From IMG/VR virus record IMGVR_UViG_3300027754_000069, positions 18,689-82,688 of that record: a stretch of 64,000 nucleotides of DNA; one strand, given 5' to 3'. Within the stretch, counting starts at the first letter, position 1. Each line of letters begins with the position of its first letter. The notes beneath the pieces are model-generated. The model had not been told where the DNA came from and made no database searches. It saw only the letters and a list, made by a program, of their open reading frames with translations. The translations under genes were made by a program, and so were the position numbers. This document shows, in pieces, positions 1-22,129 of the stretch. Source of the DNA: a virus.

Positions 1-667
1 TAGCTGCTTTGGCTGCCTCTGCTGGTGTCTTACCTGCAGCACGAGCTGCTTCGTAAGTTGAAGGTTTAGCACCTGGCTTATTTGACTTCCAGTTTCTACG
101 TTCTTCTGGTGTCATCTTTGCCCATGCTGCTTTATTGGCAGCAGATTTTGTCATCTTTGGCGCATCAGCAGTTTTTGCTGGAGCTTGTGGCTTAGGCGCT
201 GTAGCTTTCTTTGAAGTTGGCTTCTTAGCAGCTGGCTTCTTTGTGTCTGACATAATTTCTTCAGCACGAGCTTTAGATACAACCTTGCCATTTTCTACAA
301 AAGACTTACCTTTAGCTGAAACGGTTGACTTCTTAGTCGTTGGCTTCTTAGGCGCTTCTGCTTCTGCAGGAGTAGCCTTCTTGCCACCGTACTCACCAAA
401 TTCATCCCGCATGCTAGAACGAAACTTTTCACGTGCTGTTTTTTGAGTAGCTTCGTAATCAGATTTCTTGAGATATGCGTTTTTGCCAAGGTCTGTCTTA
501 GCAGATTCTGAAACTTCTTTAGCAACAATTCTATCTTCGGCACTAATTTTTAACTTAGGGTCACGTTTTGCTGCTTGTTTCTTACCAGGAAATGCTGCCT
601 TAGCAGCAGGTTTGGCAGCCTGCTTTGCCTGCCGATACTTTCGTGTGGTTGCCTTTTTGGCTGCCAT
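1..667 (-). CDS. Lys/Ala/Pro-rich basic protein, runs off window start; homolog of 39748..41226
   Basis: Read manually: MAAKKATTRKYRQAKQAAK...KSAANKAAWAKMTPEERRNW; shares KSAANKAAWAKMTP with the B copy. Confidence 0.8.
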   Translation of the reverse strand, partial: MAAKKATTRKYRQAKQAAKPAAKAAFPGKKQAAKRDPKLKISAEDRIVAKEVSESAKTDLGKNAYLKKSDYEATQKTAREKFRSSMRDEFGEYGGKKATPAEAEAPKKPTTKKSTVSAKGKSFVENGKVVSKARAEEIMSDTKKPAAKKPTSKKATAPKPQAPAKTADAPKMTKSAANKAAWAKMTPEERRNWKSNKPGAKPSTYEAARAAGKTPAEAAKAA

Positions 668-685
668 GATTATCCTTTACTTAAA

Positions 686-1009
686 TTACTTAGTGCGACG
701 AATGATTGATTCAGCTCGCGATAATGTACGTTTGCGGTCTGCGATTCGACGTGCCTGCATTTGCTTTGTTTCTTTATCAGATAAACTTGTTGCACCTTTA
801 GGGATAGTAAAAAGTGTATCTGCAGTTTTAGGGCTTTGTGCTAATTTACCAAATGCTATTCCTTGGCTAGGTGTCATTGGAAATTTATATGAAGTATTTG
901 GATTATAATTATTTGGTCCTTCTACCTTAACTTTTTTAGCCATTGTCTTTTTCTTAGCGGTAGATGATGCAACTACCTTTTTAGGTGCTGGCTTTTTTGC
1001 TTTTGCCAT
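686..1009 (-). CDS. Basic Lys-rich hypothetical protein
   Basis: ORF track; AAGGA SD; lies in the late operon. Confidence 0.75.
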   Translation of the reverse strand: MAKAKKPAPKKVVASSTAKKKTMAKKVKVEGPNNYNPNTSYKFPMTPSQGIAFGKLAQSPKTADTLFTIPKGATSLSDKETKQMQARRIADRKRTLSRAESIIRRTK

Positions 1010-1017
1010 TGTTATCC

Positions 1018-1167
1018 TTACTTAAGTTTGTTTTTGCTACCCTTGATTGTCTTAGGTGCCTTTGCTACGTCAACTTGACCTAGACCAATGCCTTTTCCTG
1101 CTGGCTTCTTGCCCATGATTGCTGAGCTTGTTGGTGCTTTTGTCATCTTTCCTTGCTTTCCGAACAT
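1018..1167 (-). CDS. 49-aa basic protein MFGKQGK...NKLK
   Basis: Read manually; AAGGAG SD; same-length homolog at 41802..41951. Confidence 0.85.
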   Translation of the reverse strand: MFGKQGKMTKAPTSSAIMGKKPAGKGIGLGQVDVAKAPKTIKGSKNKLK

Positions 1168-1180
1168 TTTTTCTCCTTGT

Positions 1181-2938
1181 TTATGCTGGTATTTGACGAG
1201 TTACTCTTGCTGCAAGATTTGGGTTTCCACCGCCAGTTAGACCTGCAAGAAGTTCTTGCATTGCTGGACGTTGTTGTTGGAATTCTGGCGCACCCGCGCC
1301 ACCCATACCCTGTTCTGGACCTGCGCCCATTCCAGATGCTTCTGGCATCTGAGGTTGTGCTGGTTCTGGCTTGAACGCTTTGGCAACCGCGTCTTCTAAC
1401 GAGGTACCCTTTTTACGTTCGGCAATAACTGCAGCCATTTTTTCAACAATCTTCATTGGGTCTTGACCTTGCATTACCATTTGTGGAATTGCTTGAGCCA
1501 TTGATGCAACTGACGCCTTGAGGGAGTCACGCATCTCTTCAATATCAATTGCTCGCTCTTCTTCTCCAGCATTGAGCGAAATCGGTAGATTGCGACGTAG
1601 CATCCCACGAGAGATTAGCTTGTCACCACGAGCTTGTAGACCCCAGACAAGTGCTCGGTTAGGGTCTAGACCTGCCATTAATCCGTATTCAACAGTAACT
1701 CCATAGTTACCTATGATGTCAGATGATGGCTTGTACTTTAACTTGTATGGAACTCCATTTGCTGTAGCAGATACTTCACGTGTTATGTTCTCGAAGAATG
1801 CTTCGTCTGTAGCAAATGCTAGTGAAATTGCTTGACCAATTGCTTCGCCAAGTACTGATTGAATAACTTTAATCTGTGAATCAAATCCAGCCATAAGTGC
1901 CTTGACACCTTGACCAGTAACGATAGAACCTTCAGCTTGACCTGCACGTGCCTGTGGGAAACGAGTTCCCAACTTCATTTCATCGGCTAGGACATTGTTT
2001 TCCGCAAACGCGAACTGAGGTACATCCAGATTAATACGACGAATTTTCTCAGGGGAGTTAGAACGAATAACTGAATCAGGACCAACGGAAAGCTGAGTAA
2101 CGTCATTAGGCAAAGCAAGAGGAGCTTCAACAGATTTTTGGACAGCTTCCATAGTAAGGAGAGCCAAACGTGCTTTCGCCGCGTAGACTGGTAGTACGTC
2201 GTCGAATGACCCTCGGACTTCGCCATCAAGCGAAGGACGCTGAGCAATTGCAACTGGGACTTTACCGATTTTGTTTTCTGTTTGTGCAAGTACTATTCCT
2301 CCACGTTCTGGAATAAACATGACTGTTTGCTTCTTGTCTGACCAACGTACAACTTCAAGTAGCTGGTTGCTATCTCCACGAGAGAATGCACCTGTTTGTA
2401 GAATTTGATTAGCGTACTCAGGGAACTGAGCTGCTAAATCTCCCGCCTTACGATAGTAAGAACGAGCATAAACTTGGACATCGCCAAATCTATCAACGTC
2501 ATAGTATGCACCCATGGAATTTTCAACATGGATGTGAGGACGTTTTTCTTTAAAGTTAGGTTCTACACGGAATACAACAAATCCGTATGTTGCCAACTGG
2601 TCTGCGCCACGCAGTAGTTCCGTTCCAAGACGAGATGATGCTACGTAGTAATTAGCAATCTTAGTTCTCTTGTCAGCCTTGGTACGCTGGTTATCATCGA
2701 GAGATGAATCGCCAGCAGCAGTAATGGTAGGTAGAACACCAGCTTGCTCAGATACATCACGAGCTACAACGTCGATAAGGTTAGCAATAATTGGTCGTGA
2801 CCAATTTCCTTCTGGAAGCAACCCTTTGAATACTTGGTCTGCTTGTCCAGCACGAACTAAGGCAACATCGCGCATGCGCCTGTCGCGCTCGGAGTTTCTA
2901 GCTTTTAACTGTTCAAAAGCTTGTACAAGTTCTTTCAT
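1181..2938 (-). CDS. Portal protein
   Basis: 585 aa directly after terminase; Gln/Pro/Met-rich C-terminal tail typical of podoviral portals; homolog at 41966. Confidence 0.8.
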   Translation of the reverse strand: MKELVQAFEQLKARNSERDRRMRDVALVRAGQADQVFKGLLPEGNWSRPIIANLIDVVARDVSEQAGVLPTITAAGDSSLDDNQRTKADKRTKIANYYVASSRLGTELLRGADQLATYGFVVFRVEPNFKEKRPHIHVENSMGAYYDVDRFGDVQVYARSYYRKAGDLAAQFPEYANQILQTGAFSRGDSNQLLEVVRWSDKKQTVMFIPERGGIVLAQTENKIGKVPVAIAQRPSLDGEVRGSFDDVLPVYAAKARLALLTMEAVQKSVEAPLALPNDVTQLSVGPDSVIRSNSPEKIRRINLDVPQFAFAENNVLADEMKLGTRFPQARAGQAEGSIVTGQGVKALMAGFDSQIKVIQSVLGEAIGQAISLAFATDEAFFENITREVSATANGVPYKLKYKPSSDIIGNYGVTVEYGLMAGLDPNRALVWGLQARGDKLISRGMLRRNLPISLNAGEEERAIDIEEMRDSLKASVASMAQAIPQMVMQGQDPMKIVEKMAAVIAERKKGTSLEDAVAKAFKPEPAQPQMPEASGMGAGPEQGMGGAGAPEFQQQRPAMQELLAGLTGGGNPNLAARVTRQIPA

Positions 2939-2942
2939 GGAA

Positions 2943-4832
2943 TCACAATCTCGCTATTCGCTGCGCTGCAGCTAAGTCATCTAAGTTGACAATGTACCTA
3001 GATTCAATCTCATGACGAGGTGTGAATTCGTTTTTGAGGAAGTTGGGTACATTCGCTGAAGTAAGTAAAACATCACGGGCTACGATTTCACAGAACCATA
3101 ACGCCATTACGGCGTCCATCTTTAATCGCTTGCCCTGTACTCCTGGTTGCCAGGTTACAAGTTGTTCTATTAACTTTTTAATATGTTCATTTCTTGAAGA
3201 ATCAGGCAACTCAATTATGTTGTCACCTGCATGCTTCAAGTTGTTATTGGTACCGTCTCGCTTAACTACGGTTCCAAATAACGGAGCCAGAGAGGCTACG
3301 CCAAACTCTGGGTCTTGCTTATTATTACCAGTATAATGTGGTCGGTAATTAATACCACGTGTAGCGAGGAAGTTTCTAATTTCCTCGTCTTGTGTTAAGA
3401 AAAGCTGAAAAGCATTTGATTCCACAATGACAGTATGCGGTTTGTAAGCATCTGTCCATTCTTTTATCAAAGAGCGAATTGCTGCAGGTGTTGGGGCTGT
3501 CATGACGTGAACGTCCATGACGTAGCGTTTGTGTGTTCTGCGGTCAACTGCGTAAGCTACAGCTGCGGTGTCGCCAGACATCGCTGGGTCGATACCAATA
3601 ACGCGATAGAAGTTCTGTGCATTATCAGGATGACCCGCTGCGCCTGCAATCAAAGCACCCGATTTTCTCATTCCATTGACTGCGCCTCTGACGCATGTCG
3701 GGTCGAAGATTGCATTCTCCGCGATATCGAGATTTTGGTAAACCAAGGACCACTTGGAAGGACCAGCCTCGTTGCGAACCGCCGTTAAGCGTTCGCCTGT
3801 CCATCGGTCAAAGTTCCCATTTTCGTCAGGCACATCAGTGTCTGTGAGGGGTTGCTCTGATTTTGCCCAAAGAGTTTTCCAATCCTTTGGATTGTCAGCG
3901 TACTGAAGTACTGCTGGCATGGACAAATATGACCACGGAAGGACACCGTCCGTGTAATGCGTTGAGTTGCGAAGTTCTTTATATAAGTCAACTGCTGATA
4001 CGCGAGTACCAACAACAAGAAGCTGACCACCACCTGGTGGAAGGCGGGAGGCAACTTCTTGTCTAATCCATTCTTGTTGCTTAGCCCATTCATTGGCGTT
4101 AGACAACGTCACAACGTCGTCTAGCACAATTAAATCTGCACGTGCTCCATAGACCTGACCGCCCATACCGATAGCTTCAACGGTTGGGTCTTTAGCGTCA
4201 TTGTCGCGGATATCTCCGCCAAGGTAAATCTTGTTAGCCGACCACTGGTCGGCGGTTGCTTTGTAACCATCTGCTGGTCCAAAAGCTGCCTGTAGGTCAG
4301 CGTACCGAGGATGTGTCAGTCGCTGCTTAATAGCGTAAAGAAACTTCTTAGCCTGCTCCTGGGTTTTCGAAATAACGATAACCGAGATATTAGGGTTCTT
4401 GACGATACGGTAGGTCACGTAGTTAATCGTAATGGTCATAGTCTTGGCGTGGTTTGGTGGTATGTTTACCAACAAACGAGCTAGACCAGCCGAGCCTTTT
4501 TCGTAGGTCATAGCTGGGTCAATCCAGCGGGGCTCTCGACCTTCTAGCATATCGACCACGTTAAGCATGTGGTCCCAGACTTTGGCACCAAGATATTTCT
4601 CGGAGAACTCGGCGAAATCTGAAAGATTCGTCCGAGCATCTTCTGCCAAATCGGCTGTTCTAAACCGAGCATTATCTATAAAGGCAGCGAAGCCTTGAGC
4701 TTCGCGCCGTTGGGTGTCATACCAAGAACGACTTCTACCAATAACTTTTAGAGAATCGGCGATGGTGCGCCCTTGGCGTACCAAGTCGATAAGTTCTTTA
4801 CGTGCCTCTTCTGGGGTTAAGTTTCTTTCCAA
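2943..4832 (-). CDS. terL: Terminase large subunit with N-terminal HTH-like extension
   Basis: PPNHAKT Walker A, LIVLDD Walker B, GTR coupling motif, IGIDPA nuclease motif, MDAVMA; TTG start. Confidence 0.93.
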   Translation of the reverse strand: MERNLTPEEARKELIDLVRQGRTIADSLKVIGRSRSWYDTQRREAQGFAAFIDNARFRTADLAEDARTNLSDFAEFSEKYLGAKVWDHMLNVVDMLEGREPRWIDPAMTYEKGSAGLARLLVNIPPNHAKTMTITINYVTYRIVKNPNISVIVISKTQEQAKKFLYAIKQRLTHPRYADLQAAFGPADGYKATADQWSANKIYLGGDIRDNDAKDPTVEAIGMGGQVYGARADLIVLDDVVTLSNANEWAKQQEWIRQEVASRLPPGGGQLLVVGTRVSAVDLYKELRNSTHYTDGVLPWSYLSMPAVLQYADNPKDWKTLWAKSEQPLTDTDVPDENGNFDRWTGERLTAVRNEAGPSKWSLVYQNLDIAENAIFDPTCVRGAVNGMRKSGALIAGAAGHPDNAQNFYRVIGIDPAMSGDTAAVAYAVDRRTHKRYVMDVHVMTAPTPAAIRSLIKEWTDAYKPHTVIVESNAFQLFLTQDEEIRNFLATRGINYRPHYTGNNKQDPEFGVASLAPLFGTVVKRDGTNNNLKHAGDNIIELPDSSRNEHIKKLIEQLVTWQPGVQGKRLKMDAVMALWFCEIVARDVLLTSANVPNFLKNEFTPRHEIESRYIVNLDDLAAAQRIARL

Positions 4833-4943
4833 GTCATCTCCAGTACCTGTAGGGGTCTACAAGAGGATAGACAGAGGTATCCCCACATAAGCATATTTAC
4901 CAAACTAAGCAGGCGTTAAGCCTGCGTCTAAGGCTCAGTGGAA

Positions 4944-4992
4944 CTTCGCCTTTATACTTATATAGGGGTCTAGAGAGTCGGCGTGTCTCAAT
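4944..4992 (-). promoter_or_regulatory. Putative late/terminase promoter
   Basis: TTGA(G/A)ACACGCCGAC(T/G)CTCTAGACCCCTATATAAGTATA nearly identical at 45741-45787 despite diverged flanks. Confidence 0.55.
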
Positions 4993-5073
4993 AGCATTTG
5001 GAAATTATTTTTAGTTATTTTATATAACCGCAGGTCAGCAGCTGTTTCTGGTGAAAATATTTTAGGTGATAGT

Positions 5074-5095
5074 GGGGGGCGGGTGGGGGGTGGGG
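5074..5095 (+). other. G-tract (G6-C-G3-T-G6-T-G4) in putative genome-end/packaging region
   Basis: Seen directly; equivalent tract at 45869-45889. Confidence 0.6.
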
Positions 5096-5130
5096 TTAAA
5101 AACCCTAGGGGTCGGCAGGGGCGGACGCAC

Positions 5131-5161
5131 AAAAAAAGGGGCAAGGGTTGCCCCCTGCCCC
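5131..5161 (-). terminator. Intrinsic terminator for leftward early transcript
   Basis: GGGGCAA-GGG-TTGCCCC stem preceded by an A-run (U-tail on minus strand). Confidence 0.55.
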
Positions 5162-5243
5162 GCATGAATTACGCCTGCGTAGGTGAGCCCCTCCCCCACT
5201 CCATGGTGTGGAGCGAGAGAGAGGCTTGACTATCTGTAGAGGG

Positions 5244-5360
5244 TTAACCCTCGTCTATCCATCCGTCCCGTTCAATGTCGGGCTCGCATACGCATCTACT
5301 TGGTTGGACGTTGATGCGCCCACACGTTGGACACGTTCTGAATTGTCCCTTGTCACTCAT
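5244..5360 (-). CDS. 38-aa Cys-rich peptide
   Basis: Read manually: MSDKGQFRTCPTCGRINVQPSRCVCEPDIERDGWIDEG; ATGA overlap with upstream stop. Confidence 0.5.
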   Translation of the reverse strand: MSDKGQFRTCPTCGRINVQPSRCVCEPDIERDGWIDEG

Positions 5361-5629
5361 GCGCTCACCCGCTTGAGAACTACGCGAAGGTTACTCGCGA
5401 CGATACTTAACTCACGCACTCCGAAGCTTTCGACTACGTCGAACACGATACCGACCTTGCCTTTACCTAGTGGAACTAGGTCACCTAGTTGAGCATACTT
5501 GAGCGAGGTTAATTCGAAATCTGGTACATGGTCGAGCGAAGGTACGTTATAGAAACTCTTAACTTCGTTAACTTCATCCTTGAGATTTACTAGTAAATCA
5601 TCGTGTGTCCATGCTGTAATCATCTTCAT
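5357..5629 (-). CDS. Immediate-early small protein, KOW/SH3-like
   Basis: AQLGDLVPLGKGKVGIV motif; homolog at 46030; CGAAAGG SD. Confidence 0.8.
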   Translation of the reverse strand: MKMITAWTHDDLLVNLKDEVNEVKSFYNVPSLDHVPDFELTSLKYAQLGDLVPLGKGKVGIVFDVVESFGVRELSIVASNLRVVLKRVSA

Positions 5630-5674
5630 GCCTTTCGGTTAATTCAACCAACCCAGCGCTGATTGAATGACACC

Positions 5675-5703
5675 AGAATACACGACCAGCCCCAGCATGT
5701 CAA
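5675..5703 (-). promoter_or_regulatory. Consensus housekeeping-sigma promoter TTGACA-17-TATTCT
   Basis: Seen directly; same position in B (TTGACA-17-GATACT). Confidence 0.8.
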
Positions 5704-5893
5704 ATTCAGACGGACAGGAGGCGTGTCTTGAGCCTATCGTCATGTCATACATACATGAACACCCATCCACATACACATCGGCACATACACACACGCGCAG
5801 GGACATGCCTGCATGCATACGGATGGATGACAGTTCACGCGGATTGGTTACTAACAGGCGGGCGCCGTGATGCAGGCGCTACGCGCATCTCAA

Positions 5894-5924
5894 GATAGCA
5901 AAGCAAAGCTTTGCATTATTAAGG
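5894..5924 (+). promoter_or_regulatory. Hairpin element H1 (GATA-GCAAAGC-AAA-GCTTTGC-ATTATTAA)
   Basis: Member of the repeated family heading rightward modules. Confidence 0.7.
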
Positions 5925-5965
5925 AGTGACCAGCCAAAATTTGGTTGGCAGATTGGAGAAAAGTT

Positions 5966-6139
5966 ATGAACGGTTATGGACTCTATTGGGGAGACTTCCT
6001 TGCAATTGGGATTCTCTTCAGCGTGATTGGCATCCTACTCGTGGCTCTTGCATGGGACTACGTGGACATCAAGATAGCAGACCGTAGGTCTGCAGATATA
6101 GAGAAGCACTGGGCAACAACGATTCGAGAGGAACGATAA
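5966..6139 (+). CDS. Small membrane protein
   Basis: One TM segment; YWGD motif shared with 46864..46980. Confidence 0.75.
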   Translation: MNGYGLYWGDFLAIGILFSVIGILLVALAWDYVDIKIADRRSADIEKHWATTIREER

Positions 6140-6315
6140 TGGATTACAAAGTAAAACTCAACTGGCAAGAAGACGAGTTCGCATCTCGCGGAACAACCTA
6201 CTTCGTAGAGTTCCTGAAGATGGATGACACTTCTCTAGGAGAAGTGGATGGCAACTCATGGCAAGAAGTATTCACCAAAGCGGTGAATTACCTACAAGAG
6301 ATAGGAGAAATCTAA
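6139..6315 (+). CDS. Hypothetical protein MDYKVKLNWQEDE...EIGEI
   Basis: Read manually; homolog at 47060..47242; TAATG coupling. Confidence 0.85.
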   Translation: MDYKVKLNWQEDEFASRGTTYFVEFLKMDDTSLGEVDGNSWQEVFTKAVNYLQEIGEI

Positions 6316-6674
6316 TGGGAGCACGTATCAATTTCGTACTGAAGGTATACCCGACAGAGCAAGCACACGTCACGCTCTACTCACATTGGGGCGAGACTAC
6401 TTGGCGTTACGATTTAGCAATGGCATTGCTACATGCCAAGCCTCGATGGGATGACCAGAACTACGGAGCACGAATAGTTGTTTCACAACTAATCGGTGAC
6501 AACTGGAACAATGAGACAGGCTACGGCTTGTTCACAAGCGTTGACGGCGAGGACTTAGGGGACACCACTGTAGTGGTGGACTTTACAAATCAAACAGTCA
6601 ATGATACAGGCAACGAACATTCGTTCGGTGCTTTCATCGAATACCAAACGGAAATGGTGGAATATCATGGGTAA
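6315..6674 (+). CDS. Hypothetical protein (MGAR...LYSHWG family)
   Basis: Homolog at 47243..47605; start moved to coupled ATG. Confidence 0.85.
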   Translation: MGARINFVLKVYPTEQAHVTLYSHWGETTWRYDLAMALLHAKPRWDDQNYGARIVVSQLIGDNWNNETGYGLFTSVDGEDLGDTTVVVDFTNQTVNDTGNEHSFGAFIEYQTEMVEYHG

Positions 6675-6939
6675 CGCAACAGCGCAAGACTTAGCAGAGA
6701 ATGTCATAGACATTCGTCAATCAGTGGCGATTCAATTGCGAAGCAATCACTATCCGCCAGTACCTCTCAGCATGGTGGAACCATGTATCGAAGCCATCTA
6801 TGCAGTATCGGATGGTGATACTCATAAGAGTATCCAACTACCAGACGGTGTCGAGTGGCGTGGCTACCCGACAGCCCCTGCATATGCCATCGTCGAGGGG
6901 CATCATCTCGAACCATGGTGTGACTTCGACCATCAATAG
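6667..6939 (+). CDS. Hypothetical protein (NHYPPVP...HHL family)
   Basis: Homolog at 48770..49042. Confidence 0.85.
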   Translation: MGNATAQDLAENVIDIRQSVAIQLRSNHYPPVPLSMVEPCIEAIYAVSDGDTHKSIQLPDGVEWRGYPTAPAYAIVEGHHLEPWCDFDHQ

Positions 6940-6972
6940 ATAGCACAGCAAAGCTGTGCATATATATAAGGG
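6939..6972 (+). promoter_or_regulatory. Hairpin element H2 (GATA-GCACAGC-AAA-GCTGTGC-ATATATATAA)
   Basis: Seen directly; intergenic, upstream of the GP88-like gene. Confidence 0.7.
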
Positions 6973-14958: not shown

Positions 14959-14961
14959 TTG

Positions 14962-15339: not shown

Positions 15340-15377
15340 AGTTACCTCTTTTCATTTTGTGAGTAGCCGTAACTTGC

Positions 15378-15731
15378 TCACTGATGTCCATTGTAACCTG
15401 CCTGTTTAAGCAGATTCACCCAGAGTTCCGCAGGCATTACTGCATACGACTCTGAGATATTAGAAGTGCCACGCTTCTTGATTAACACAACGCCTGTCTC
15501 TGCATCGGCATGTGTCATCTCATTCTCCAGTTCCCGAAGATACTGAGGAATTCTAATTGCTTTCTCATTCTTACATTCTATAACCACACCATTGATACCG
15601 TCAATATCTCCGACATCATCGTGTCTGCCTGCACCATATGCGCGTTCAGCGCATGGATAGCCCATGGTTACTAACCACTTAACTACATCACGTTCGTACT
15701 GTGAGCCTTTACGTTTAGCTGCTGATGTCAT
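15378..15731 (-). CDS. Holliday junction resolvase (Hjc-like PD-(D/E)XK)
   Basis: KRKGSQYER, GDI, IECKN. Confidence 0.85.
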   Translation of the reverse strand: MTSAAKRKGSQYERDVVKWLVTMGYPCAERAYGAGRHDDVGDIDGINGVVIECKNEKAIRIPQYLRELENEMTHADAETGVVLIKKRGTSNISESYAVMPAELWVNLLKQAGYNGHQ

Positions 15732-15997
15732 ACGTAATCTCCTGGTATCAATGAGTCTAGTTTTATATTTAACTTACGACGTATCTTCATTCTTTCACGT
15801 GGTGTCAATCCACCCCATAGACCATACCCTTCATGGAGTACTGCCCAGTCAAGACATTCTTTCTTTACTTGACAACCAGAACATATTTTTTTACCAAAGG
15901 AATACATTGATGTATCACCTTCGTTCTCAGAATCTGGGTAAAAAAAATCGCTACCAACTTCTCTGCACTGACCACGTGATAGGTCTGGCATACGCAT
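15728..15997 (-). CDS. whiB: WhiB family transcriptional regulator
   Basis: C..FFYP...KKICxxCxVxxECL...GLWGG..ER. Confidence 0.95.
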   Translation of the reverse strand: MRMPDLSRGQCREVGSDFFYPDSENEGDTSMYSFGKKICSGCQVKKECLDWAVLHEGYGLWGGLTPRERMKIRRKLNIKLDSLIPGDYV

Positions 15998-16007
15998 CTG
16001 TAACTCC

Positions 16008-16169
16008 TTAAGGTCGGCGGTTTAATCTATAAAGATTTTCCCAGTACTTTAACGCAACTTCATCCGTAACTGCAAGATATTGTAACCTTTTTCTTTTTTG
16101 CACACCAAGGTAGGCAAGTACATGCCACTTAATCCAAGCACCACGTATATAGATGGTTGGCTTAATCAT
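16008..16169 (-). CDS. 53-aa hypothetical protein (A only)
   Basis: Read manually: MIKPTIYIRGAWIKWHV...; fills the gap and overlaps the upstream stop. Confidence 0.5.
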   Translation of the reverse strand: MIKPTIYIRGAWIKWHVLAYLGVQKRKRLQYLAVTDEVALKYWENLYRLNRRP

Positions 16170-16554
16170 TCTTTAATTCTTTCATCACATCTAATAGGTT
16201 CTCTACCGTAATCAGATAGCCCTTGCTTCTATTCGGTGGTATCTCACAAGTAATCTCTCGACCAAACTTTTTAATTGCATACAACACATGACCAGTTGGA
16301 ACCATGAGCACACCACGTTCAAGTACGAACGCCCAGTATGCAGCTTTAGTTACCATCACACCTGACGGTTCCCAATTCTGGGAACGTCGATACCAGCATT
16401 CAACTTCTATATATAGGTTATTGGTTGACCACCATTTGCGGTCACGTTTAACTTCTACTGTGCCACCTTCGGTCAGTAGTTGATTTACTAGTGACTCGCC
16501 TTCTTGACCAAATCTAAAATCTAAATCAAATGACGATAGATTTTCTACTGCCAT
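16162..16554 (-). CDS. Putative PD-(D/E)XK-fold nuclease (A allele)
   Basis: FDLD..G..GE, VEVKRD, NLYIE, SG..T.A.YW. Confidence 0.6.
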   Translation of the reverse strand: MAVENLSSFDLDFRFGQEGESLVNQLLTEGGTVEVKRDRKWWSTNNLYIEVECWYRRSQNWEPSGVMVTKAAYWAFVLERGVLMVPTGHVLYAIKKFGREITCEIPPNRSKGYLITVENLLDVMKELKND

Positions 16555-17378
16555 TGCGATAACGTTCTTGCTCTATGTAAATCAGATGGAGAGTTGTAAA
16601 GAACCATCTTGCTTGCTTCCGCCGATAAAGTTACATAGCTTTCTGCAGTTGGGTCTGCCTTGCCATGTCTGTTCTTTACAACAGCAACTCGATAATTAGA
16701 GGAAGCACTATCCAGAGCCACCGAAAGGACCAACTCTGGTAGTGCTGCCACCTTACCCATCAATGCTTTACGTGGTGCTGGGTAGTTCGGCTTAGACATC
16801 TTCTCATTCTCGGAAACGTGGTGCAGGACGATGAATGCCGATTCATACTCACGAGCCATGTAGTGAAACGCTGACATGGCATCGCGTAGTGCAGTCCACT
16901 CGTTATCACTTGCGGATGCTACGTTCATTAAGTTGTCTACATATACAGCAGTAGGTGCCGAACCATGCAATTCAATCCACGCTTCTATCTCCTCTTCAAT
17001 GTCTTGAAGAGAAGGTGCTGGGTCGAACGCGAATCGTACATGGTCGGCACCTTCCGCTAGCGCATCCTCAAGGAGAACGCTTGCTTCGGTATCCATCAAT
17101 CTTTCTACATCAGCAACATCTTTATTCATAAGTATTGCACCAGCGCGAGTAGCGATGGTACGTGAATCAGAGTCAGCTGATATATATAACGACGGAACCT
17201 TAGATGTAATTGCGTACCATAATGCAAGTAGTGTCTTACCTCCGCCTGGTTGACCAGCGACCAAATGCAATTGCGCTTGGCGAAAGACAACTTGACTGGC
17301 TGTGAGTTGAGGCAGGATTTCTGGTAGTTGATGACCAACTGGTGACTCGACACCCACTACTTGCAAGAGGCTACGCAC
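16545..17378 (-). CDS. DnaB/RecA-like replicative helicase
   Basis: GQPGGGKT, VYVDNL, LHH, VKNRHG. Confidence 0.9.
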   Translation of the reverse strand: MRSLLQVVGVESPVGHQLPEILPQLTASQVVFRQAQLHLVAGQPGGGKTLLALWYAITSKVPSLYISADSDSRTIATRAGAILMNKDVADVERLMDTEASVLLEDALAEGADHVRFAFDPAPSLQDIEEEIEAWIELHGSAPTAVYVDNLMNVASASDNEWTALRDAMSAFHYMAREYESAFIVLHHVSENEKMSKPNYPAPRKALMGKVAALPELVLSVALDSASSNYRVAVVKNRHGKADPTAESYVTLSAEASKMVLYNSPSDLHRARTLSQWQ

Positions 17379-17854
17379 TACTTAGCCCAGATTGTTTCTG
17401 CTTCTACGGCACCTGGTGAGAAAGGCTTCGGTCCCTTGGCTGGGTCAAACCAACCAACATAAGCCTTGCCTGCTTTTGATACGCCCTTCTTCTTGGCGTA
17501 CTTACCGCGTCCGTCTGGTAGGTCTGGTGCATCTGGATGCCCATATGTCCATTCATTACCGTACCTATCTTTGACAACCTCGATTGATTGTACTGTTGTT
17601 CCTGATGTTACTGGCTGTGGGTTTAGCCCAGCATCCTGCAACATTTGGATTGCTTGTTCAGCATTAGGTGTGTATGCGTTGCCTGTTGGTATAGGCAGTG
17701 GTCGACCAAGACGTGCTTGGAGTTGTACAGCCTCAGCGATTGCTTCGACTGCTGCTTCTAGGTTAGTTCTAAATTCACTAACGCTATTACCTCGGACGGT
17801 AAATAGGTCAGTTGAATTTAACTTACCTGTATACGAGAACATAGATTCAGTCAT
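17378..17854 (-). CDS. Conserved replication-module protein of unknown function
   Basis: Highly conserved homolog at 59353..59826. Confidence 0.8.
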   Translation of the reverse strand: MTESMFSYTGKLNSTDLFTVRGNSVSEFRTNLEAAVEAIAEAVQLQARLGRPLPIPTGNAYTPNAEQAIQMLQDAGLNPQPVTSGTTVQSIEVVKDRYGNEWTYGHPDAPDLPDGRGKYAKKKGVSKAGKAYVGWFDPAKGPKPFSPGAVEAETIWAK

Positions 17855-18523
17855 CTACTTTCTCTCCTTTTCTTTCCCTGTTGTTGGTAGTTGTAGTGGG
17901 AAATCTTTTGAGCCCCATGCGGGGCACTTCGCCATGAACGAACACATCTTACAGTTTTCACCAACGAATGTTGGGAAGTAACCTTGCAATACTGAGTGGT
18001 TCATAGATGTAAACGCATGTTCATAGTATTCAATACTGAGGTGGGTTAAGTCAATCAATTCATCAAGCTCGCCTTTGCGAGTCATAAAAAATGCGCCCCA
18101 CTTGGGGCGAATACCAAAAATCTTTTCAACACCACTGGCATACAATCCATTTTGGATTACACCGAACGGTGTCCTGGAACCAGTCTTATAGTCAACGATA
18201 ACCAAGTCTTCCCCTACTTGGTATATCGCATCAATAATAAATCGAACAGGTGTACCCCCGAAATGCACATCTGCTGACCATTCGATTCCAGGACGACCAT
18301 CAGGCATGGTAGCGATTTGCCAACCAGATTGCAACATCCATTGATGGTATGCCTCAACCTGCTTTAGCCCATCGCTTTGCCAGAAGGAGAGGTCCTCACC
18401 GTCAGGACGAGCAGCGGTCTTACGACCAGCTACCTTCCATTCTGATGGGGGTAACCCCGACTTCTCCTCGACATCTCTTACTTCGGCATTGAATATCTCA
18501 AGCCATTTCTCAGTTAAACTCAT
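17855..18523 (-). CDS. Cas4/RecB-like exonuclease, C-terminal part
   Basis: IE, ID, IVDYKTG, QxxxY, CxxCxxxxxC. Confidence 0.88.
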   Translation of the reverse strand: MSLTEKWLEIFNAEVRDVEEKSGLPPSEWKVAGRKTAARPDGEDLSFWQSDGLKQVEAYHQWMLQSGWQIATMPDGRPGIEWSADVHFGGTPVRFIIDAIYQVGEDLVIVDYKTGSRTPFGVIQNGLYASGVEKIFGIRPKWGAFFMTRKGELDELIDLTHLSIEYYEHAFTSMNHSVLQGYFPTFVGENCKMCSFMAKCPAWGSKDFPLQLPTTGKEKERK

Positions 18524-18752
18524 CGTACTCTTCCTCTGGTCGGTCAGGTTTCACATAGTCTGGATGGTCAACTGGTGTGGGGGTTGTCATAGGTGAACCG
18601 CAATCAGCACAGAAAGAATCCGTGAACCACATGACCAAGTCGTAGTCTTGGAAGATAGCCCTGATAACCTGAATGTTTGAACCGCAGTTCACACATTCAT
18701 TACTAGGGATACCTCGCTGGTCAATCAAGTTGTTGTTGTTTGTAGAGCTCAT
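18510..18752 (-). CDS. Zn-ribbon protein between the nuclease halves
   Basis: CxxC..CxxC..TPVD; homolog at 60474..60704. Confidence 0.8.
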   Translation of the reverse strand: MSSTNNNNLIDQRGIPSNECVNCGSNIQVIRAIFQDYDLVMWFTDSFCADCGSPMTTPTPVDHPDYVKPDRPEEEYDEFN

Positions 18753-18912
18753 GGTTTAACCATTCCAACATAGAGTGGACGGCAGAGCCAGCAGCAAGAT
18801 ACACTGCAGGCTTCTCTGGGACCATGGCTATCTTGCTCAGATAGTATTTCTGAGGACAGGATTGCCAAGTGGATAACTGACTATACGACCGATGAGGAGG
18901 AAGTTGATTCAT
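18721..18912 (-). CDS. Cas4/RecB-like exonuclease, N-terminal part
   Basis: SYSQLSTWQSCPxKYYL, GSAVHxxLE; probably leaderless start. Confidence 0.85.
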   Translation of the reverse strand: MNQLPPHRSYSQLSTWQSCPQKYYLSKIAMVPEKPAVYLAAGSAVHSMLEWLNHELYKQQQLD

Positions 18913-18948
18913 ACCGTAAATCATACCAATGAATTACCAATCTGTGTC
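18913..18948 (-). promoter_or_regulatory. Leaderless promoter of the replication operon
   Basis: GACAC-18-TATGAT-7 nt-ATG; B has GACAC-17-TATACT-7 nt-ATG. Confidence 0.7.
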
Positions 18949-18984
18949 ATAGACACGCCAAATGTTATTACCAATAATCTGATA

Positions 18985-19006
18985 GGGTTGAGGGGTGGTG
19001 GGAGGG
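18985..19006 (+). other. G-quadruplex-type motif GGGTTGAGGGGTGGTGGGAGGG
   Basis: Identical at 60942-60963. Confidence 0.6.
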
Positions 19007-19049
19007 AAAGGCTTGCCCGATGGCAAGCCGTGGTAAGAAAAAGAGAAAT

Positions 19050-19086
19050 AAAAAAAGAGGGGGACCATTAAGTCCCCCTCCTCTTC
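19050..19086 (-). terminator. Terminator ending the late operon (possibly bidirectional)
   Basis: A-run plus GAGGGGGAC..GTCCCCCTC; conserved at 61217-61253. Confidence 0.8.
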
Positions 19087-19092
19087 TATCTC

Positions 19093-19311
19093 CTACCATT
19101 CTGGTGGAGCAACTGCGAGCGCATCCAGCGTGGCTATATTGATGCACCCGACTGCTGGGATGGAAAGCCGATGCTGCAAACCTCTTAGCAATTCAGCAAG
19201 GGGCGCATCTAGCACATCATCGCCAGCAACATTAAGAGCTAGCCTGACTTGATTGACTAACTCATTTCGTTCGCCTAGTGATACCAGTGGTATTAACTTG
19301 TTATCTTCCAC
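19093..19311 (-). CDS. Stand-alone peptidoglycan-binding-domain-like protein
   Basis: G...V..V..AL...D......L..LQ....I...G.I...T..AL pattern; homolog at 61259. Confidence 0.65.
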   Translation of the reverse strand: MEDNKLIPLVSLGERNELVNQVRLALNVAGDDVLDAPLAELLRGLQHRLSIPAVGCINIATLDALAVAPPEW

Positions 19312-21224
19312 TACTGGATTGCTTGTTCGTAATCGATTGTCTGCAACTGGATGGTGACTATCCCACCAAATCCTTTAGCAAACGTTGGAGGAGATTGTTG
19401 TTCGAACTGAATAGCTCGGATGACACAGACTCTTTCCTCACCAGAGGAGAAGTCTTGAAACAGTACGGCTCCACCGTTTTGTTCGATACGTTCTAAATAT
19501 CTAATACGTTCCCAAGGAGTGCTTACGTTAGTGACGCCGTTAGAGTCACGTTCTTCCTCGTAACACAGCAATGGAATTGTTATTGTTCTTGACCGAAGTG
19601 GCGCAGGCAATGCTCGACATTGCCACTCTTCAATCGTTGGACCAGAGGTTGCACTTGACGTACTACGGTTAAGGGTCAAGGTTATATTGAAATGGTCAGC
19701 TGGTTGCAGTCCAGCTGAAAGTTGAATCTCGCTAGACATATTAACTGCAATGGAGTCAACAGATGTTTCATTACCTTCTTGGTCTTCAACTTTAAATCCA
19801 ACTGTTCCAGTACCAGATGAACGGACAGATAGTGAAACTGGTTGCTTGCGTTCTGCTGTGCCCCAGCGAACCCAACCAGAACTAATTGTTCCGCTTGTTG
19901 CAAGCTCGGTTGCATGTTCAAGATAAATGCCAGCTGTAGTTGTTATGAATTTTCTACTACTAGTTCCAATAAAAGCAACACCAGTTGGCGCAGCTGCGCC
20001 AATAACTAAATCAGAAGCGTAAGCATAACCAACATTAAGGGGTACGCCTAAGTCAATTCGCCATAATCCATAGTTAAGTTCAGAGTTTGTCGAACTTTTG
20101 GTTGCATATAAATAGTTGCTATCAAAACTTACATCTTTGATTTCATCTTCAATAACCAATGCACCTAAAATAAAGGTCGTTCCATCGGTTGATTGATTGC
20201 CAATACGTAGACCTCGGTTAGTGCATAGGGCAACATACTCATTGAGATACATTCTCATTTGATTGAGAGTCTCACCACGTGGTAGTTCAGCAATAACATT
20301 TGCTTCATTGATGGCAGCTAGTGGATTAGCTAGGTCAATTGAAAAAGAAATTACACGTGATATAGCACCCTGTGTGTAACCAGCAACAATTGCACTGTTT
20401 AGTTCCGTAATAGAATTAACTACAGTGGATGTATTGGTAGTTTCCCATCGTTCGTTGGATGCATTAATAGTTGGAGTAGGTGTTGTGTAGGCTCTAGCTA
20501 CTTCATAGATTCCAACCTCAACTGTGCCTTCCAAAGCTGCTACAACAATACGTTCTTTGATATAAGCAATTGTTTGTGGGAACCATGCAGCTGCTACATA
20601 TGTAGGATGGTTCCATAATTTCCGAACAACACCTGCAGTTGTTACATCATAGATTCCTTCAGTTGCTGCAACAATACAATAGGTTCCATCTGATGTAATG
20701 CAATATGGAATATTGCCTGCACCAAGGGTTATGGCTGTATGTGTATTAGCTGATTGACTATAAAACTTTAACGTTGAGCCTTCAATATAAAAAGTTCCAC
20801 CAGATACGGTTACTGGATTTATTACAGATGCAGTAGTTGCCTGGGTTGTTTTCTTAAGAAGGGACATATTTCCTAAATCCCAAACATCTACGTTATTAGA
20901 TTCCCAAAATTTAAATAAGTCACTTGAGTCTGCATCGTAATACTCTTCTCCAGCACCATGGTGCCATGATGTAGCAGTACGTAACCACCAGTTAGATAAG
21001 GAGTTCTCACCAGCAGATGCACCCTGGTCAATACGTTCCTTCTGGTATGTTGTAGTTACACGAGTGATACGGTTCTGGTCTGTTGCAGCAGATAGCCATG
21101 GCGTATTGCCGATAGCATAACTTGCAGCAAAGTCTTCACGTTTGTATTTAACTAAGGCAGTCGGAATCGACTGGCTTAATATAATCGGTAGGTCACCAAC
21201 AAGTTCTTTGTTATTTGTTGCCAC
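19311..21224 (-). CDS. Tail (nozzle/tubular B-like) beta-rich structural protein
   Basis: 637 aa beta-rich; late operon; homolog at 61471. Confidence 0.6.
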   Translation of the reverse strand: MATNNKELVGDLPIILSQSIPTALVKYKREDFAASYAIGNTPWLSAATDQNRITRVTTTYQKERIDQGASAGENSLSNWWLRTATSWHHGAGEEYYDADSSDLFKFWESNNVDVWDLGNMSLLKKTTQATTASVINPVTVSGGTFYIEGSTLKFYSQSANTHTAITLGAGNIPYCITSDGTYCIVAATEGIYDVTTAGVVRKLWNHPTYVAAAWFPQTIAYIKERIVVAALEGTVEVGIYEVARAYTTPTPTINASNERWETTNTSTVVNSITELNSAIVAGYTQGAISRVISFSIDLANPLAAINEANVIAELPRGETLNQMRMYLNEYVALCTNRGLRIGNQSTDGTTFILGALVIEDEIKDVSFDSNYLYATKSSTNSELNYGLWRIDLGVPLNVGYAYASDLVIGAAAPTGVAFIGTSSRKFITTTAGIYLEHATELATSGTISSGWVRWGTAERKQPVSLSVRSSGTGTVGFKVEDQEGNETSVDSIAVNMSSEIQLSAGLQPADHFNITLTLNRSTSSATSGPTIEEWQCRALPAPLRSRTITIPLLCYEEERDSNGVTNVSTPWERIRYLERIEQNGGAVLFQDFSSGEERVCVIRAIQFEQQSPPTFAKGFGGIVTIQLQTIDYEQAIQ

Positions 21225-21234
21225 GAGTTATCTC

Positions 21235-21741
21235 CTACTTCTTGGATGGACAGTGCTTACAGCAGTTAGATGTATCTTCTGCTGGGTATGCTTTCTTAGT
21301 CGGTACAGCAGCAATTGCTGCTTTAACCTGATTAATTATCTTAGGTTGATTCATCCACCAGAACCACGGAGAAGTATCGGTACCCATAGTGGACTCAATA
21401 GAAACATGTAGATGCTTATTATGAGGATTACTCCCAGTGTACCGTCTGTTTCCCAGCTTGGATTTTTCTTTAGACCAAATCTTTCCCTGAAAGATAAGGT
21501 ACTTAACTCTTTTATCTTCTTTAAGTTTCTCAAATATTTCCTTACAGTCAATACCATTATCTGGGTCATGGGTAAGGTCTGCTGCTAGCCCAGTATTGTG
21601 GTCCGAGTTCGGACTTTGACTGACATGTGCTGCAGATGGTAGAAGACCATCGCTTGCTTTCTTCCGCTTTGGTTGCAGTGCCGTCGCTTGGCGCAGCACA
21701 GCAAGTGCAGCAGGTGTGGCTTTCTTGACTACAGTTGTCAT
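21235..21741 (-). CDS. Endolysin, Zn-peptidase (M15/LAS-like)
   Basis: SDHxxGxAxD and HxxHLHVS motifs; adjacent to holin-like genes. Confidence 0.75.
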   Translation of the reverse strand: MTTVVKKATPAALAVLRQATALQPKRKKASDGLLPSAAHVSQSPNSDHNTGLAADLTHDPDNGIDCKEIFEKLKEDKRVKYLIFQGKIWSKEKSKLGNRRYTGSNPHNKHLHVSIESTMGTDTSPWFWWMNQPKIINQVKAAIAAVPTKKAYPAEDTSNCCKHCPSKK

Positions 21742-21941
21742 TCACGATTCTTTCCAGCTACTAGTTCATACAGGCTGTCAACACGAAGTTCTAATCTATC
21801 GAGTGAGTCACGCATCGAGCTGCCTGAATTTGGTTTCAATTCTGTGAGGTAGTGTTTTACTAACCAACGAACTGAGCCAGCAAAGCTGGCAACTATTGTG
21901 GCAGTGGCAACAGCCAAGCCAGCCCATTCGTTGGTAGACAT
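21738..21941 (-). CDS. Single-TM lysis-module membrane protein
   Basis: TM segment plus ELKPNSGSSMRD coiled segment. Confidence 0.75.
   Translation of the reverse strand: MSTNEWAGLAVATATIVASFAGSVRWLVKHYLTELKPNSGSSMRDSLDRLELRVDSLYELVAGKNRE
21749..21847 (+). repeat. Exact repeat, copy 1 (at least 99 bp; matches 63902-64000)
   Basis: Base-by-base comparison. Confidence 0.9.
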
Positions 21942-22129
21942 TATTCTGCTCCGCGTCCGAAGTCTGTTGAAGATCCGTCAAGCCACTTAAGAACTGGACC
22001 AAGGAACCCTGTTAGAGCTGCTGTTCCCAGAACCTTAAGGTCCGTCTGACCAGCAAGATAAAGTGCGACAGCAGCAGATGCTGCTGCACGGAACCAAGAT
22101 AATGCTATTGCTTGAAACTTTGCGTTCAT
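21941..22129 (-). CDS. Holin
   Basis: 62 aa, two TM segments, P.LKWLD...FGRG tail. Confidence 0.75.
   Translation of the reverse strand: MNAKFQAIALSWFRAAASAAVALYLAGQTDLKVLGTAALTGFLGPVLKWLDGSSTDFGRGAE

What the first reader, a model, noticed from the sequence alone, without database searches (positions are those of the whole stretch)
1..21975. GATC is purged from phage A but common in phage B
Seen by manual scan: no GATC in 1-21971. The first site is at 21972 and sites are then frequent (22447, 24484, 25057 ... 63717). Homologous positions differ exactly at the site: A AACTGGTCTGCG vs B AACTGATCTGCG (portal); A TCTGGGTCTTG vs B TCTGGATCCTG (terminase); A GACCAAATCT vs B GACCAGATCT (endolysin); A GTAGGTCACC vs B GTAGATCACC (tail). 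Known: phages lose sites of host restriction systems (Sau3AI/MboI/DpnII class). Inference: the sister phages face different host RM systems, and the signature places the junction at ~21.75-21.97 kb. GGCC and CCGG also looked absent or very scarce in both.
Basis: seen in the sequence. Interest (0 to 1): 0.72.

Follow-up and report, generated by a model that had tools for sequence, protein, structure and literature searches.

The report
GATC-free phage carries a telltale nuclease gene
One of two sister freshwater phages has removed every GATC from its DNA, and this tracks a small phage nuclease-like gene (also in cultured ocean phages) rather than the host, which points to a phage-carried GATC cutter that its own genome escapes by having no sites.

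Summary
GATC is absent from all 40.5 kb of phage A (about 146 expected). Phage B has 126.

The 82.7-kb record is a chimeric assembly of two separate ~41-42 kb actinophages. They are joined inside a 199-bp identical block at window 21749-21947.

A removes GATC through context-dependent synonymous codons: Asp before a C-initial codon is GAC 128 times and GAT 0 times. Neither phage encodes a DNA methyltransferase.

Host restriction avoidance is real in this phage family:
- GGCC, CCGG, GCSGC and CCCGT are avoided by both phages.
- CYCGRG and GGTCTC are avoided only by A's type.
- RGCGCY and TCGCGA are avoided only by B's type.
- Matching enzyme families (NgoPII, HpaII, NgoFVII, BpuJI, Sau3AI-like) occur in Nanopelagicales genomes.

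For GATC a stronger correlate appeared. A 130-aa viral-only, PD-(D/E)XK-like gene (window 16162-16554) is present in A and replaced by an unrelated gene in B.
- 102 of 106 metagenomic loci carrying a homologue have zero GATC, and the other four have 1-3.
- All five cultured marine phages examined that carry a homologue have zero GATC.
- HTVC010P, which lacks the gene but infects the same SAR11 strain as two of them, keeps 131 GATC.

Best reading (~0.55): a phage-borne GATC-directed nuclease, with self-immunity by site avoidance. Cleavage itself is untested.

The parts
1..21847 (.). 3' half of phage unit A. The unit continues 18,688 bases upstream of the window. It is completely GATC-free.
   Evidence: 0 GATC in the whole 40.5-kb unit against 146 expected; the loss is achieved through synonymous, context-dependent codon choice.
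21749..21947 (.). 199-bp block that is identical in A and B (99 nt, then the 12-nt linker at 21848-21859, then 88 nt). The assembler joined the two genomes here.
   Evidence: exact identity; the same stretch is contiguous and internal in five complete single genomes; in run X2 a contig runs from the A end through the linker into the A start.
21860..64000 (.). Complete phage unit B (42.1 kb) with 126 GATC. RGCGCY and TCGCGA are absent.
   Evidence: B is 93% identical over 88% of its length to an independent 41,633-bp genome (G203).
21972..21975 (.). First GATC in the window, 25 nt past the shared block. Phage A's own sequence reads GACT at this place.
   Evidence: (X2 contig: 21974 T>C, 21975 C>T).
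16162..16554 (-). A-type 130-aa gene (phrog_13596), from a viral-only family. It has a PD-(D/E)XK-like motif (G..GE, EVK.D, E.E). It is the candidate GATC-directed nuclease, and its presence predicts GATC-free DNA.
58005..58526 (-). B-type 173-aa gene in the same slot (DUF6998, motif GE / D..D / QVK). Its predicted fold is nearest to the methyl-dependent restriction enzymes NhoI and Eco15I.
   Evidence: it also occurs in some GATC-free genomes.
15785..15976 (-). WhiB-like gene of A, a marker of actinophages.
   Evidence: PF02467, 52.9 bits.
57767..58024 (-). WhiB-like gene of B.
2943..4832 (-). Large terminase of A, used for the family tree.
43738..45699 (-). Large terminase of B.
21738..21941 (-). 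67-aa gene that spans the A/B join. It is conserved in phage E7 (61% identity), so the join is not a genome end.
22751..26673 (-). Tail-fibre and receptor-binding genes of B (Gly_rich_2, Mtd_N). They have no homologues in A and are hypervariable across relatives.

Best explanation
Phage A's lineage is under absolute selection against GATC because it carries a small nuclease-like gene (130 aa, window 16162-16554, minus strand, in the early replication module between WhiB and the helicase). I infer that its product acts on GATC. It most likely cuts GATC-containing DNA, meaning the host chromosome and competing phages. The phage's own genome is immune simply because it has no sites, and there is no methyltransferase. 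Phage B has an unrelated gene in that slot and keeps GATC.

The purge is implemented through synonymous, context-dependent codon choice. A host Sau3AI-like system may have started or reinforced it, since the gene can only be tolerated in a genome already free of GATC.

The other forbidden words are ordinary avoidance of host Type II restriction sites: GGCC, CCGG, GCSGC and CCCGT in both phages; CYCGRG and GGTCTC in A's type; RGCGCY and TCGCGA in B's type.

Shown: the counts, the codon mechanism, the absence of methyltransferases, the link between the gene and the missing word, and the same-host control. Inferred: nuclease activity, GATC specificity and the biological role.
For: 1. Gene against GATC state in seven complete genomes. 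The 130-aa gene is in all three GATC-free genomes and in none of the four with GATC.
2. Close homologues. Of 80 loci (840 kb), 77 have 0 GATC and 3 have 1: 3 observed against 3,177 expected.
3. Distant homologues. There are 26 loci (282 kb) on unrelated backbones that share only 1-3 genes with A. GC ranges from 38 to 52% and other palindromes vary freely. 25 have 0 GATC. The one with 3 sites has only a partial gene match.
4. Unbiased word scan. GATC is the only 4-5-mer with observed/expected below 0.12 in the distant set: 3 against 1,179.
5. Cultured phages with a homologue. GATC observed/expected: HTVC011P 0/81, HTVC019P 0/95, HMO-2011 0/156, CRP-143 0/133, HTVC104P 0/150.
6. Same-host control. 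HTVC010P infects the same strain (HTCC1062) as HTVC011P and HTVC019P. It has no homologue and has GATC 131/139.
7. Base rate. 75 of 80 loci carrying the B-type gene, and 58 of 82 terminase relatives, have GATC.
8. Nuclease character. Invariant G, E, E-V-K and E residues hold across 30-40%-identical members. The best PDB fold match is the PD-(D/E)XK homing endonuclease I-Ssp6803I (E 0.11). The nearest named clusters in the language-model search are NOV_C and PDDEXK_14/16.
9. The family is viral only.
10. No DNA methyltransferase in either phage.
11. Codon mechanism. Asp before a C-initial codon is GAC 128 times and GAT 0 times. Ile after a G-ending codon is never ATC (0 of 124).
12. Candidate host genomes hold plenty of GATC, at 0.65-0.95 of expectation.
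Against: - No biochemical evidence exists. The fold assignment is weak (model pLDDT 77.5, Foldseek E 0.11), and no Pfam family matches.
- GATC-free phages without the gene exist: E7 and F5, and loci L246-L250, which carry the B-type gene. GATC can therefore be purged by another cause, most simply a host enzyme. A Sau3AI-like R-M system does occur in 5 of 201 Nanopelagicales genomes.
- The loci are not phylogenetically independent. I count roughly 13 lineages plus four cultured host groups.
- Only 80 of more than 587 close loci, and 5 of 39 cultured records, were examined.
- There is a single same-host control, and HTVC010P could escape restriction in another way.
- Four gene-positive loci carry 1-3 GATC.
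Confidence: 0.55

Rival explanations
1. Classical restriction avoidance only. A's lineage infects host strains that carry a GATC-cutting Type II system (Sau3AI-like) and B's lineage does not. The 130-aa gene is then a bystander that shares ancestry or host range with GATC-free phages.
For: - A Sau3AI-like enzyme lies next to a C5 methyltransferase in 5 of 201 Nanopelagicales genomes. It has two MutH domains and matches PDB 4pxg at E 5e-56.
- Other avoided words match enzyme families found in the same host order: NgoPII for GGCC, HpaII for CCGG, NgoFVII_C for GCSGC, BpuJI_N for CCCGT and the Alw26I/Eco31I family.
- A's type also lacks CYCGRG and GGTCTC, which the 130-aa gene cannot explain.
- E7, F5 and L246-L250 are GATC-free without the gene.
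- GATC-free relatives form one well-supported split in the terminase tree (SH-aLRT 99).
- The phenomenon is well documented (PMC6286503).
Against: - It does not explain why GATC, and only GATC, is missing wherever the gene family occurs, across unrelated backbones and across phages of SAR11, SAR116 and Roseobacter hosts as well as actinophages.
- It does not explain why HTVC010P keeps 131 GATC on the same host strain as the GATC-free HTVC011P and HTVC019P.
- The Sau3AI-like enzyme is no commoner (5/201) than the enzymes for GGCC (1/201) or CCGG (2/201), yet those two words are avoided by nearly all relatives.
- The DpnII family was not found.
Confidence: 0.3
2. A methylation-dependent version. 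GATC is avoided so that a host Dam-type methylase cannot mark the phage DNA for a DpnI-like or Type IV nuclease. That nuclease could belong to the host or be the phage's own 130-aa protein.
For: - D12-class (Dam-type) methyltransferases occur in 12 of 201 Nanopelagicales genomes.
- The neighbouring B-type slot protein resembles the methyl-dependent enzymes NhoI and Eco15I.
- Site avoidance protects equally against methyl-dependent cutting.
Against: - Dam-type methylases are rare in the candidate hosts.
- No DpnI-like gene was looked for or seen.
- The pattern is the same in phages of very different hosts whose methylation status is unknown.
Confidence: 0.07
3. GATC is avoided for a reason unrelated to cutting by a dedicated nuclease. 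One example is escaping methyl-directed mismatch repair, as proposed for phiX174. Another is plain mutation or codon bias.
For: phiX174 is devoid of GATC, and this has been linked to avoiding mismatch repair (PMC5014478).
Against: - Codon use is context-specific: GAT is the commoner Asp codon (400 against 216) except before C, where it is never used. This excludes general bias.
- From general knowledge, not tested here: Actinobacteria lack the MutH/Dam pathway.
- This reading does not explain the link to one gene family.
Confidence: 0.03

Closest known systems
Restriction-site avoidance by phages (orthodox Type II sites; Rusinov et al. 2018, PMC6286503)
   Same: Short palindromes are eliminated completely from a non-temperate dsDNA phage without any amino-acid cost. 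Profiles differ between related phages. Cognate enzyme families are present in the likely host order.
   Different: For GATC, the missing word follows a phage gene rather than the host, and a phage on the same host strain keeps GATC. The selecting nuclease would then be the phage's own.
Phage-encoded nucleases that destroy host DNA while the phage genome is exempt (T4 EndoII/EndoIV with hydroxymethyl-C DNA; chlorovirus R-M enzymes with cognate methylases). From general knowledge.
   Same: An early-module nuclease would act on host DNA, and the phage's own DNA is exempt.
   Different: Those systems protect the phage by base modification or methylation. Here there is no methyltransferase and no modification gene tied to GATC, so the exemption would come purely from lacking the site.
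Sau3AI / MutH family R-M systems
   Same: They target GATC. A full-length Sau3AI homologue with a C5 methyltransferase sits in the Nanopelagicales R-M island.
   Different: The phage 130-aa protein shows no detectable similarity to MutH/Sau3AI, DpnII or the host's PDDEXK_11 nucleases.
'Ca. Planktophila' phages E7 and F5 (PMC10202952) and the uvFW-CGR-AMD-COM freshwater actinophages
   Same: Same phage family: about 27 shared genes, terminase 46% identical, and WhiB, sigma factor and glycosyltransferase present. Genomes are ~39-42 kb at 45% GC. One family member of the 130-aa protein is named from uvFW-CGR-AMD-COM-C403.
   Different: E7 and F5 lack both slot genes, yet have zero GATC, GGCC, CCGG, AGCT and CATG. 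GATC and methylation are not mentioned in the main text of the paper.

Membership tests
Host-driven restriction-site avoidance | The recognition word is far below its compositional expectation | tested here: met
   GATC is 0 against 146 expected in A. GGCC and CCGG are 0 in both units.
Host-driven restriction-site avoidance | A cognate restriction enzyme is present in the host | tested here: inconclusive
   A Sau3AI-like enzyme is in 5 of 201 genomes of the candidate host order, and the DpnII family in 0 of 201. The actual host strain is unknown.
Host-driven restriction-site avoidance | Avoidance tracks the host, so phages of one host share it | tested here: not met
   On strain HTCC1062, HTVC011P and HTVC019P have 0 GATC but HTVC010P has 131 against 139 expected. 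This is one control only, and in homologue-bearing marine phages rather than in A itself.
Host-driven restriction-site avoidance | The phage has no self-methylation that would make avoidance unnecessary | tested here: met
   PF02086, PF01555, PF05869 and PF00145 were all absent in a six-frame search of the record.
PD-(D/E)XK nuclease superfamily (130-aa protein) | Conserved acidic residues plus an (D/E)xK motif on a core beta sheet | tested here: inconclusive
   E, E-V-K and E are invariant across distant members. The model has an alpha-beta-beta-beta core. However, the best PDB match is weak (I-Ssp6803I, E 0.11) and there is no Pfam hit.
Type II restriction endonuclease acting alone (130-aa protein) | Sequence-specific cleavage at GATC | not testable with these tools
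   Only the association between the gene and the missing word is available.
Type II restriction endonuclease acting alone (130-aa protein) | Homodimer, as expected for a palindromic site | not tested
Restriction-modification system (phage-borne) | A cognate methyltransferase encoded alongside | tested here: not met
   There is no methyltransferase in either unit, so this is not an R-M system.
Sau3AI/MutH family (host enzyme in G008) | Two MutH-like domains and full-length similarity to Sau3AI | tested here: met
   PF02976 matches twice at 128.5 bits. PDB 4pxg matches at E 5e-56 over residues 14-386.

The most novel reading that the evidence does not exclude
A widespread, viral-only family of ~130-aa proteins (phrog_13596 and relatives) is a solitary GATC-specific endonuclease. 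It is carried by phages of the most abundant aquatic bacteria: acI Actinobacteria, SAR11, SAR116 and Roseobacter. It would shred host and rival-phage DNA, and the carrier is protected by having evolved a genome with no GATC at all rather than by methylation. The neighbouring 'slot' alleles, such as the NhoI-like 173-aa protein in B, may be further weapons of the same kind with other targets.
Probability: 0.45. Interest if true: 0.88.

Novelty: new variant of a known kind. Interest (0 to 1): 0.78.

Why it matters
Missing restriction sites in phage genomes are routinely read as a footprint of host defence and are used to guess hosts.

It would also define a new kind of self/non-self discrimination: immunity by sequence avoidance, with no modification enzyme. 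The carriers are phages of the dominant freshwater and marine bacteria, where breaking down host DNA could matter for nutrient recycling and for competition between phages.

The protein would be a very small candidate GATC enzyme. The rule "gene present means no GATC" is easy to test on cultured SAR11 phages.

Separately, the reciprocal avoidance profiles and the matching restriction island in Nanopelagicales give a sequence-only handle on strain-level phage-host structure in uncultured acI populations.

Tried and rejected
Ruled out or weakened:
- A methyltransferase in B that would explain tolerance of GATC: none found.
- Mimicry of host composition: 20 Nanopelagicales genome samples are not depleted in GATC, GGCC or CCGG.
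- A physical genome end (cos site) at the junction: rejected. A conserved gene spans it, the stretch is internal in five complete genomes, and many relatives' contigs instead start 80-250 nt upstream of the terminase.
- A real tandem dimer: rejected. A and B depths vary independently in three runs, and run X2 has a contig joining the A end to the A start.
- Tail-fibre type as a correlate of GATC state: the fibres are hypervariable in every genome and uninformative.
- Co-occurrence of the Sau3AI-like enzyme with BsoBI or Eco31I-type enzymes in the same host genomes: not found. BsoBI and HaeII gave 0 of 201, but their control searches rang nowhere, so this is uninformative.
- Homology of the 130-aa protein to the host's PDDEXK_11 nucleases that sit beside Dam-type methylases: none.
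The B-type gene also occurs in GATC-free genomes.

- One alignment (A4) was too diverse for a locus scan.
- One distant representative (P0264) gave no loci.

Literature: searches found no paper linking acI phages or pelagiphages to GATC loss. The library is incomplete.


Full report
**1. Observation**

GATC is absent from window 1-21971. It first occurs at 21972 and then 126 times up to 63808. A maximal-order Markov model expects 87.7 sites in 1-21900.

The window is bases 18689-82688 of an 82,688-bp IMG/VR virus record. With the whole record laid, unit A (record 1-40541) has 0 GATC against 146 expected. Unit B has 126 against 192 expected, a ratio of 0.66, like its other palindromes. GGCC and CCGG are 0 in all 82.7 kb.

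**2. What the record is**

A and B are collinear genomes with 64-79% nucleotide identity, 40.5 and 42.1 kb long, placed head to tail.

- The join lies inside 199 bp of exact identity: 99 nt, a 12-nt linker, then 88 nt, at window 21749-21947.
- A conserved 67-aa gene spans the join.
- The same stretch is contiguous and internal in five complete single genomes of 41.5-42.7 kb.
- B is 93% identical over 88% of its length to one of those genomes.

Contigs from three public runs were laid on the window. Approximate depths for A and B were:

| Run | A | B |
|---|---|---|
| X1 (probable source) | ~10 | 14-17 |
| X2 | 8-10 | ~2 |
| X3 | 0-1 | 2-3 |

In X2 a 5,266-nt contig runs from the A end through the linker into the A start. 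Its 30 differences from the window fall exactly where A's start differs from B's start, and the GATC at 21972 reads GACT.

A and B are therefore separate replicons and the record is a chimeric assembly. This also follows from logic: a purge in half of one molecule would be useless.

**3. How the purge is done**

Selection acts on the word itself, through synonymous choices.

| Context | Phage A | Phage B |
|---|---|---|
| Asp before a C-initial codon | GAC 128, GAT 0 | GAC 67, GAT 65 |
| Asp elsewhere | GAC 216, GAT 400 | GAC 230, GAT 391 |
| Ile after a G-ending codon | ATC 0 of 124 | ATC 38 of 135 |
| xGA-TCx codon pairs | 0 | 22 |

Of 93 B GATC sites that lie in aligned codons, A has GACC at 32, and 59 keep the amino acids.

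Neither phage encodes a DNA methyltransferase from the four main families.

**4. Who they are**

- Both units carry WhiB, a sigma-70-like gene and a glycosyltransferase-like gene.
- The terminase is 46% identical to those of 'Ca. Planktophila' phages E7 and F5 (PMC10202952). About 27 genes are shared with E7.
- Relatives are abundant in IMG/VR. The terminase scan confirmed 169 relatives and kept the best 80.
- One relative is binned in a 'Ca. Nanopelagicus' genome and another in a Polynucleobacter genome.

A freshwater actinobacterial host, probably Nanopelagicales, is likely but not proven.

**5. Host restriction avoidance is real in this family**

- All 80 terminase relatives lack GGCC and 79 lack CCGG. 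GATC is binary: zero in about 24, near expectation in the rest.
- The GATC-free relatives form one split of the terminase tree (SH-aLRT 99, one change of state).
- Word statistics on pooled clades and on seven complete genomes show reciprocal profiles:

| Word | A's type (A, G206, G207) | B's type (B, G203-G205) |
|---|---|---|
| GATC | 0 | 107-166 |
| CYCGRG | 0 | 11-16 |
| GGTCTC | 0 | 8-12 |
| RGCGCY | 22-50 | 0-2 |
| TCGCGA | 2-13 | 0 |

- Both types avoid GGCC, CCGG, GCSGC, CCCGT, TGCGCA and GTGCAC. Further combinations exist among relatives.
- E7 and F5 have zero GATC, GGCC, CCGG, AGCT and CATG.

On the host side, I searched about 201 Nanopelagicales genomes.

- C5 methyltransferases occur in 46, mostly in one island at about 420-510 kb.
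- Beside them lie enzymes of the NgoPII (GGCC), HpaII (CCGG), NgoFVII_C (GCSGC), BpuJI_N (CCCGT), LlaMI/MvaI-BcnI, EcoO109I and Alw26I/Eco31I families. The recognition sequences given here come from my general knowledge of those enzymes.
- A full-length Sau3AI homologue occurs in 5 genomes.
- The host genomes themselves are not depleted in these words.

**6. The twist for GATC**

I compared three GATC-free and four GATC-containing complete genomes. Exactly one A gene is present in all of the former and none of the latter: a 130-aa ORF between WhiB and the helicase. In B's type an unrelated 173-aa ORF fills that slot.

The 130-aa protein has these properties:
- It belongs to phrog_13596.
- It has hundreds of viral-only relatives.
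- It has invariant G, E, E-V-K and E residues.
- Its predicted model has pLDDT 77.5, and the best solved-structure match is the PD-(D/E)XK homing endonuclease I-Ssp6803I (E 0.11).

The 173-aa protein (DUF6998) has pLDDT 88.8 and best matches the methyl-dependent enzymes NhoI and Eco15I.

Tests of the link between the gene and the missing word:
- **Close homologues.** 80 loci (840 kb) hold 3 GATC in all, against 3,177 expected.
- **Distant homologues.** 26 loci lie on unrelated backbones that share 1-3 genes with A, with GC 38-52%. 25 have zero GATC, while GGCC, CCGG, AGCT and others vary freely. The exception (3 sites against 52 expected) has only a partial gene match.
- **Unbiased scan.** GATC is the only 4-5-mer below 0.12 of expectation in the distant set.
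- **Base rate.** 75 of 80 loci with the B-type gene have GATC.
- **Cultured phages.** Homologues occur in 39 records, almost all from phages of SAR11, SAR116 and Roseobacter hosts. All five genomes that I fetched have zero GATC, against 81-156 expected. HTVC010P infects the same SAR11 strain as HTVC011P and HTVC019P, has no homologue, and has 131 GATC against 139 expected.

The converse does not hold. E7, F5 and L246-L250 are GATC-free without the gene. GATC can therefore also be purged for other reasons.

**7. Reading**

The simplest account of [quoted passage not shown] is that the product acts on GATC. I think it is most likely a GATC-directed endonuclease used against host or rival DNA. 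The carrier would be immune by lacking sites. Equivalently, the gene is tolerable only in a genome already purged, for example by a host Sau3AI-like system, and it then locks that state in.

I put this at about 0.55. Host restriction alone gets about 0.30. A methyl-dependent variant and non-nuclease reasons share the rest. Nuclease activity, specificity and role are inferences, and nothing biochemical was or could be tested here.

**8. Known against new**

Site avoidance is decades old (PMC6286503). GATC loss in phiX174 has been tied to mismatch repair (PMC5014478). I found no paper linking acI phages or pelagiphages to GATC loss, and none proposing a phage nuclease with self-immunity by avoidance. 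The library is incomplete.

I class the finding as a new variant of a known kind. It would rank higher if the biochemistry holds.

**9. Limits**

- The loci are related to one another. I count about 13 lineages plus four cultured host groups.
- Only a sample of family members was examined.
- There is a single same-host control.
- The fold evidence is weak.

Noticed in passing
window 21749-21947 and the whole record: The 82.7-kb record is a chimeric join of two separate ~41-42 kb phages through a 199-bp identical block. CheckV's '100% complete' hides a dimer. The exact identity, inside otherwise 79-89% identical flanks, suggests recent recombination between A and B.
   Followed up: yes
L089, L090 (OX376640.1, OX376641.1): The cultured 'Ca. 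Planktophila' phages E7 and F5 have zero GATC, GGCC, CCGG, AGCT and CATG in ~39 kb each. GATC and methylation are not mentioned in the main text of the paper that describes them.
   Followed up: partly
Nanopelagicales genomes G004-G033, about 420-510 kb on their main contig (loci L093-L158): A hypervariable restriction-modification island. C5 methyltransferases are paired with many different nucleases, including Sau3AI-like, HpaII, NgoPII, NgoFVII_C, BpuJI, MvaI/BcnI, LlaMI, EcoO109I and HNH types, plus several small proteins with no family.
   Followed up: partly
window 58005-58526 (-): The B-type slot protein (DUF6998) has a confident model. Its best solved-structure matches are NhoI and Eco15I, restriction enzymes that need methylated DNA. 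A phage nuclease aimed at methylated host DNA is conceivable.
   Followed up: partly
window 22672-24672: The glycine-rich tail-fibre gene of B attracts 2-4 times the depth, many joints and many loose ends in all three runs. It is a repeat-rich, hypervariable cassette shared among many phages.
   Followed up: no
L005-L084 (terminase loci): Many relatives' contigs begin or end 80-250 nt upstream of the terminase gene. The true genome end or terminal repeat probably lies there, near window ~45.9 kb in B and ~5.1 kb in A.
   Followed up: no
L069/L257, L253, L254, L256, L332, L326: A few relatives keep CCGG at the expected frequency while still lacking GGCC. A large subgroup of phages carrying the A-type gene (L266-L337) additionally lacks AGCT. 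Avoidance profiles are combinatorial.
   Followed up: partly
L359: This is the only locus with a distant homologue that retains GATC (3 against 52 expected). Its gene match is partial (residues 17-91), as if the gene were decaying and sites were beginning to return.
   Followed up: no
L366, L367, L371 (pelagiphages HTVC011P, HTVC019P, HTVC104P): HTVC011P also has zero TCGA (23 expected) and HTVC019P zero GCGC (33 expected); ACGT is almost gone from HTVC104P (1 against 12). HTVC011P is annotated with an anti-restriction protein.
   Followed up: no
window 13126-13443 and 55174-55491 (-); 11279-12112 and 53348-54154 (-): Both phages carry a DUF1599 'nucleotide modification associated' gene and a weak glycosyltransferase-like gene. 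DNA modification was not examined.
   Followed up: no
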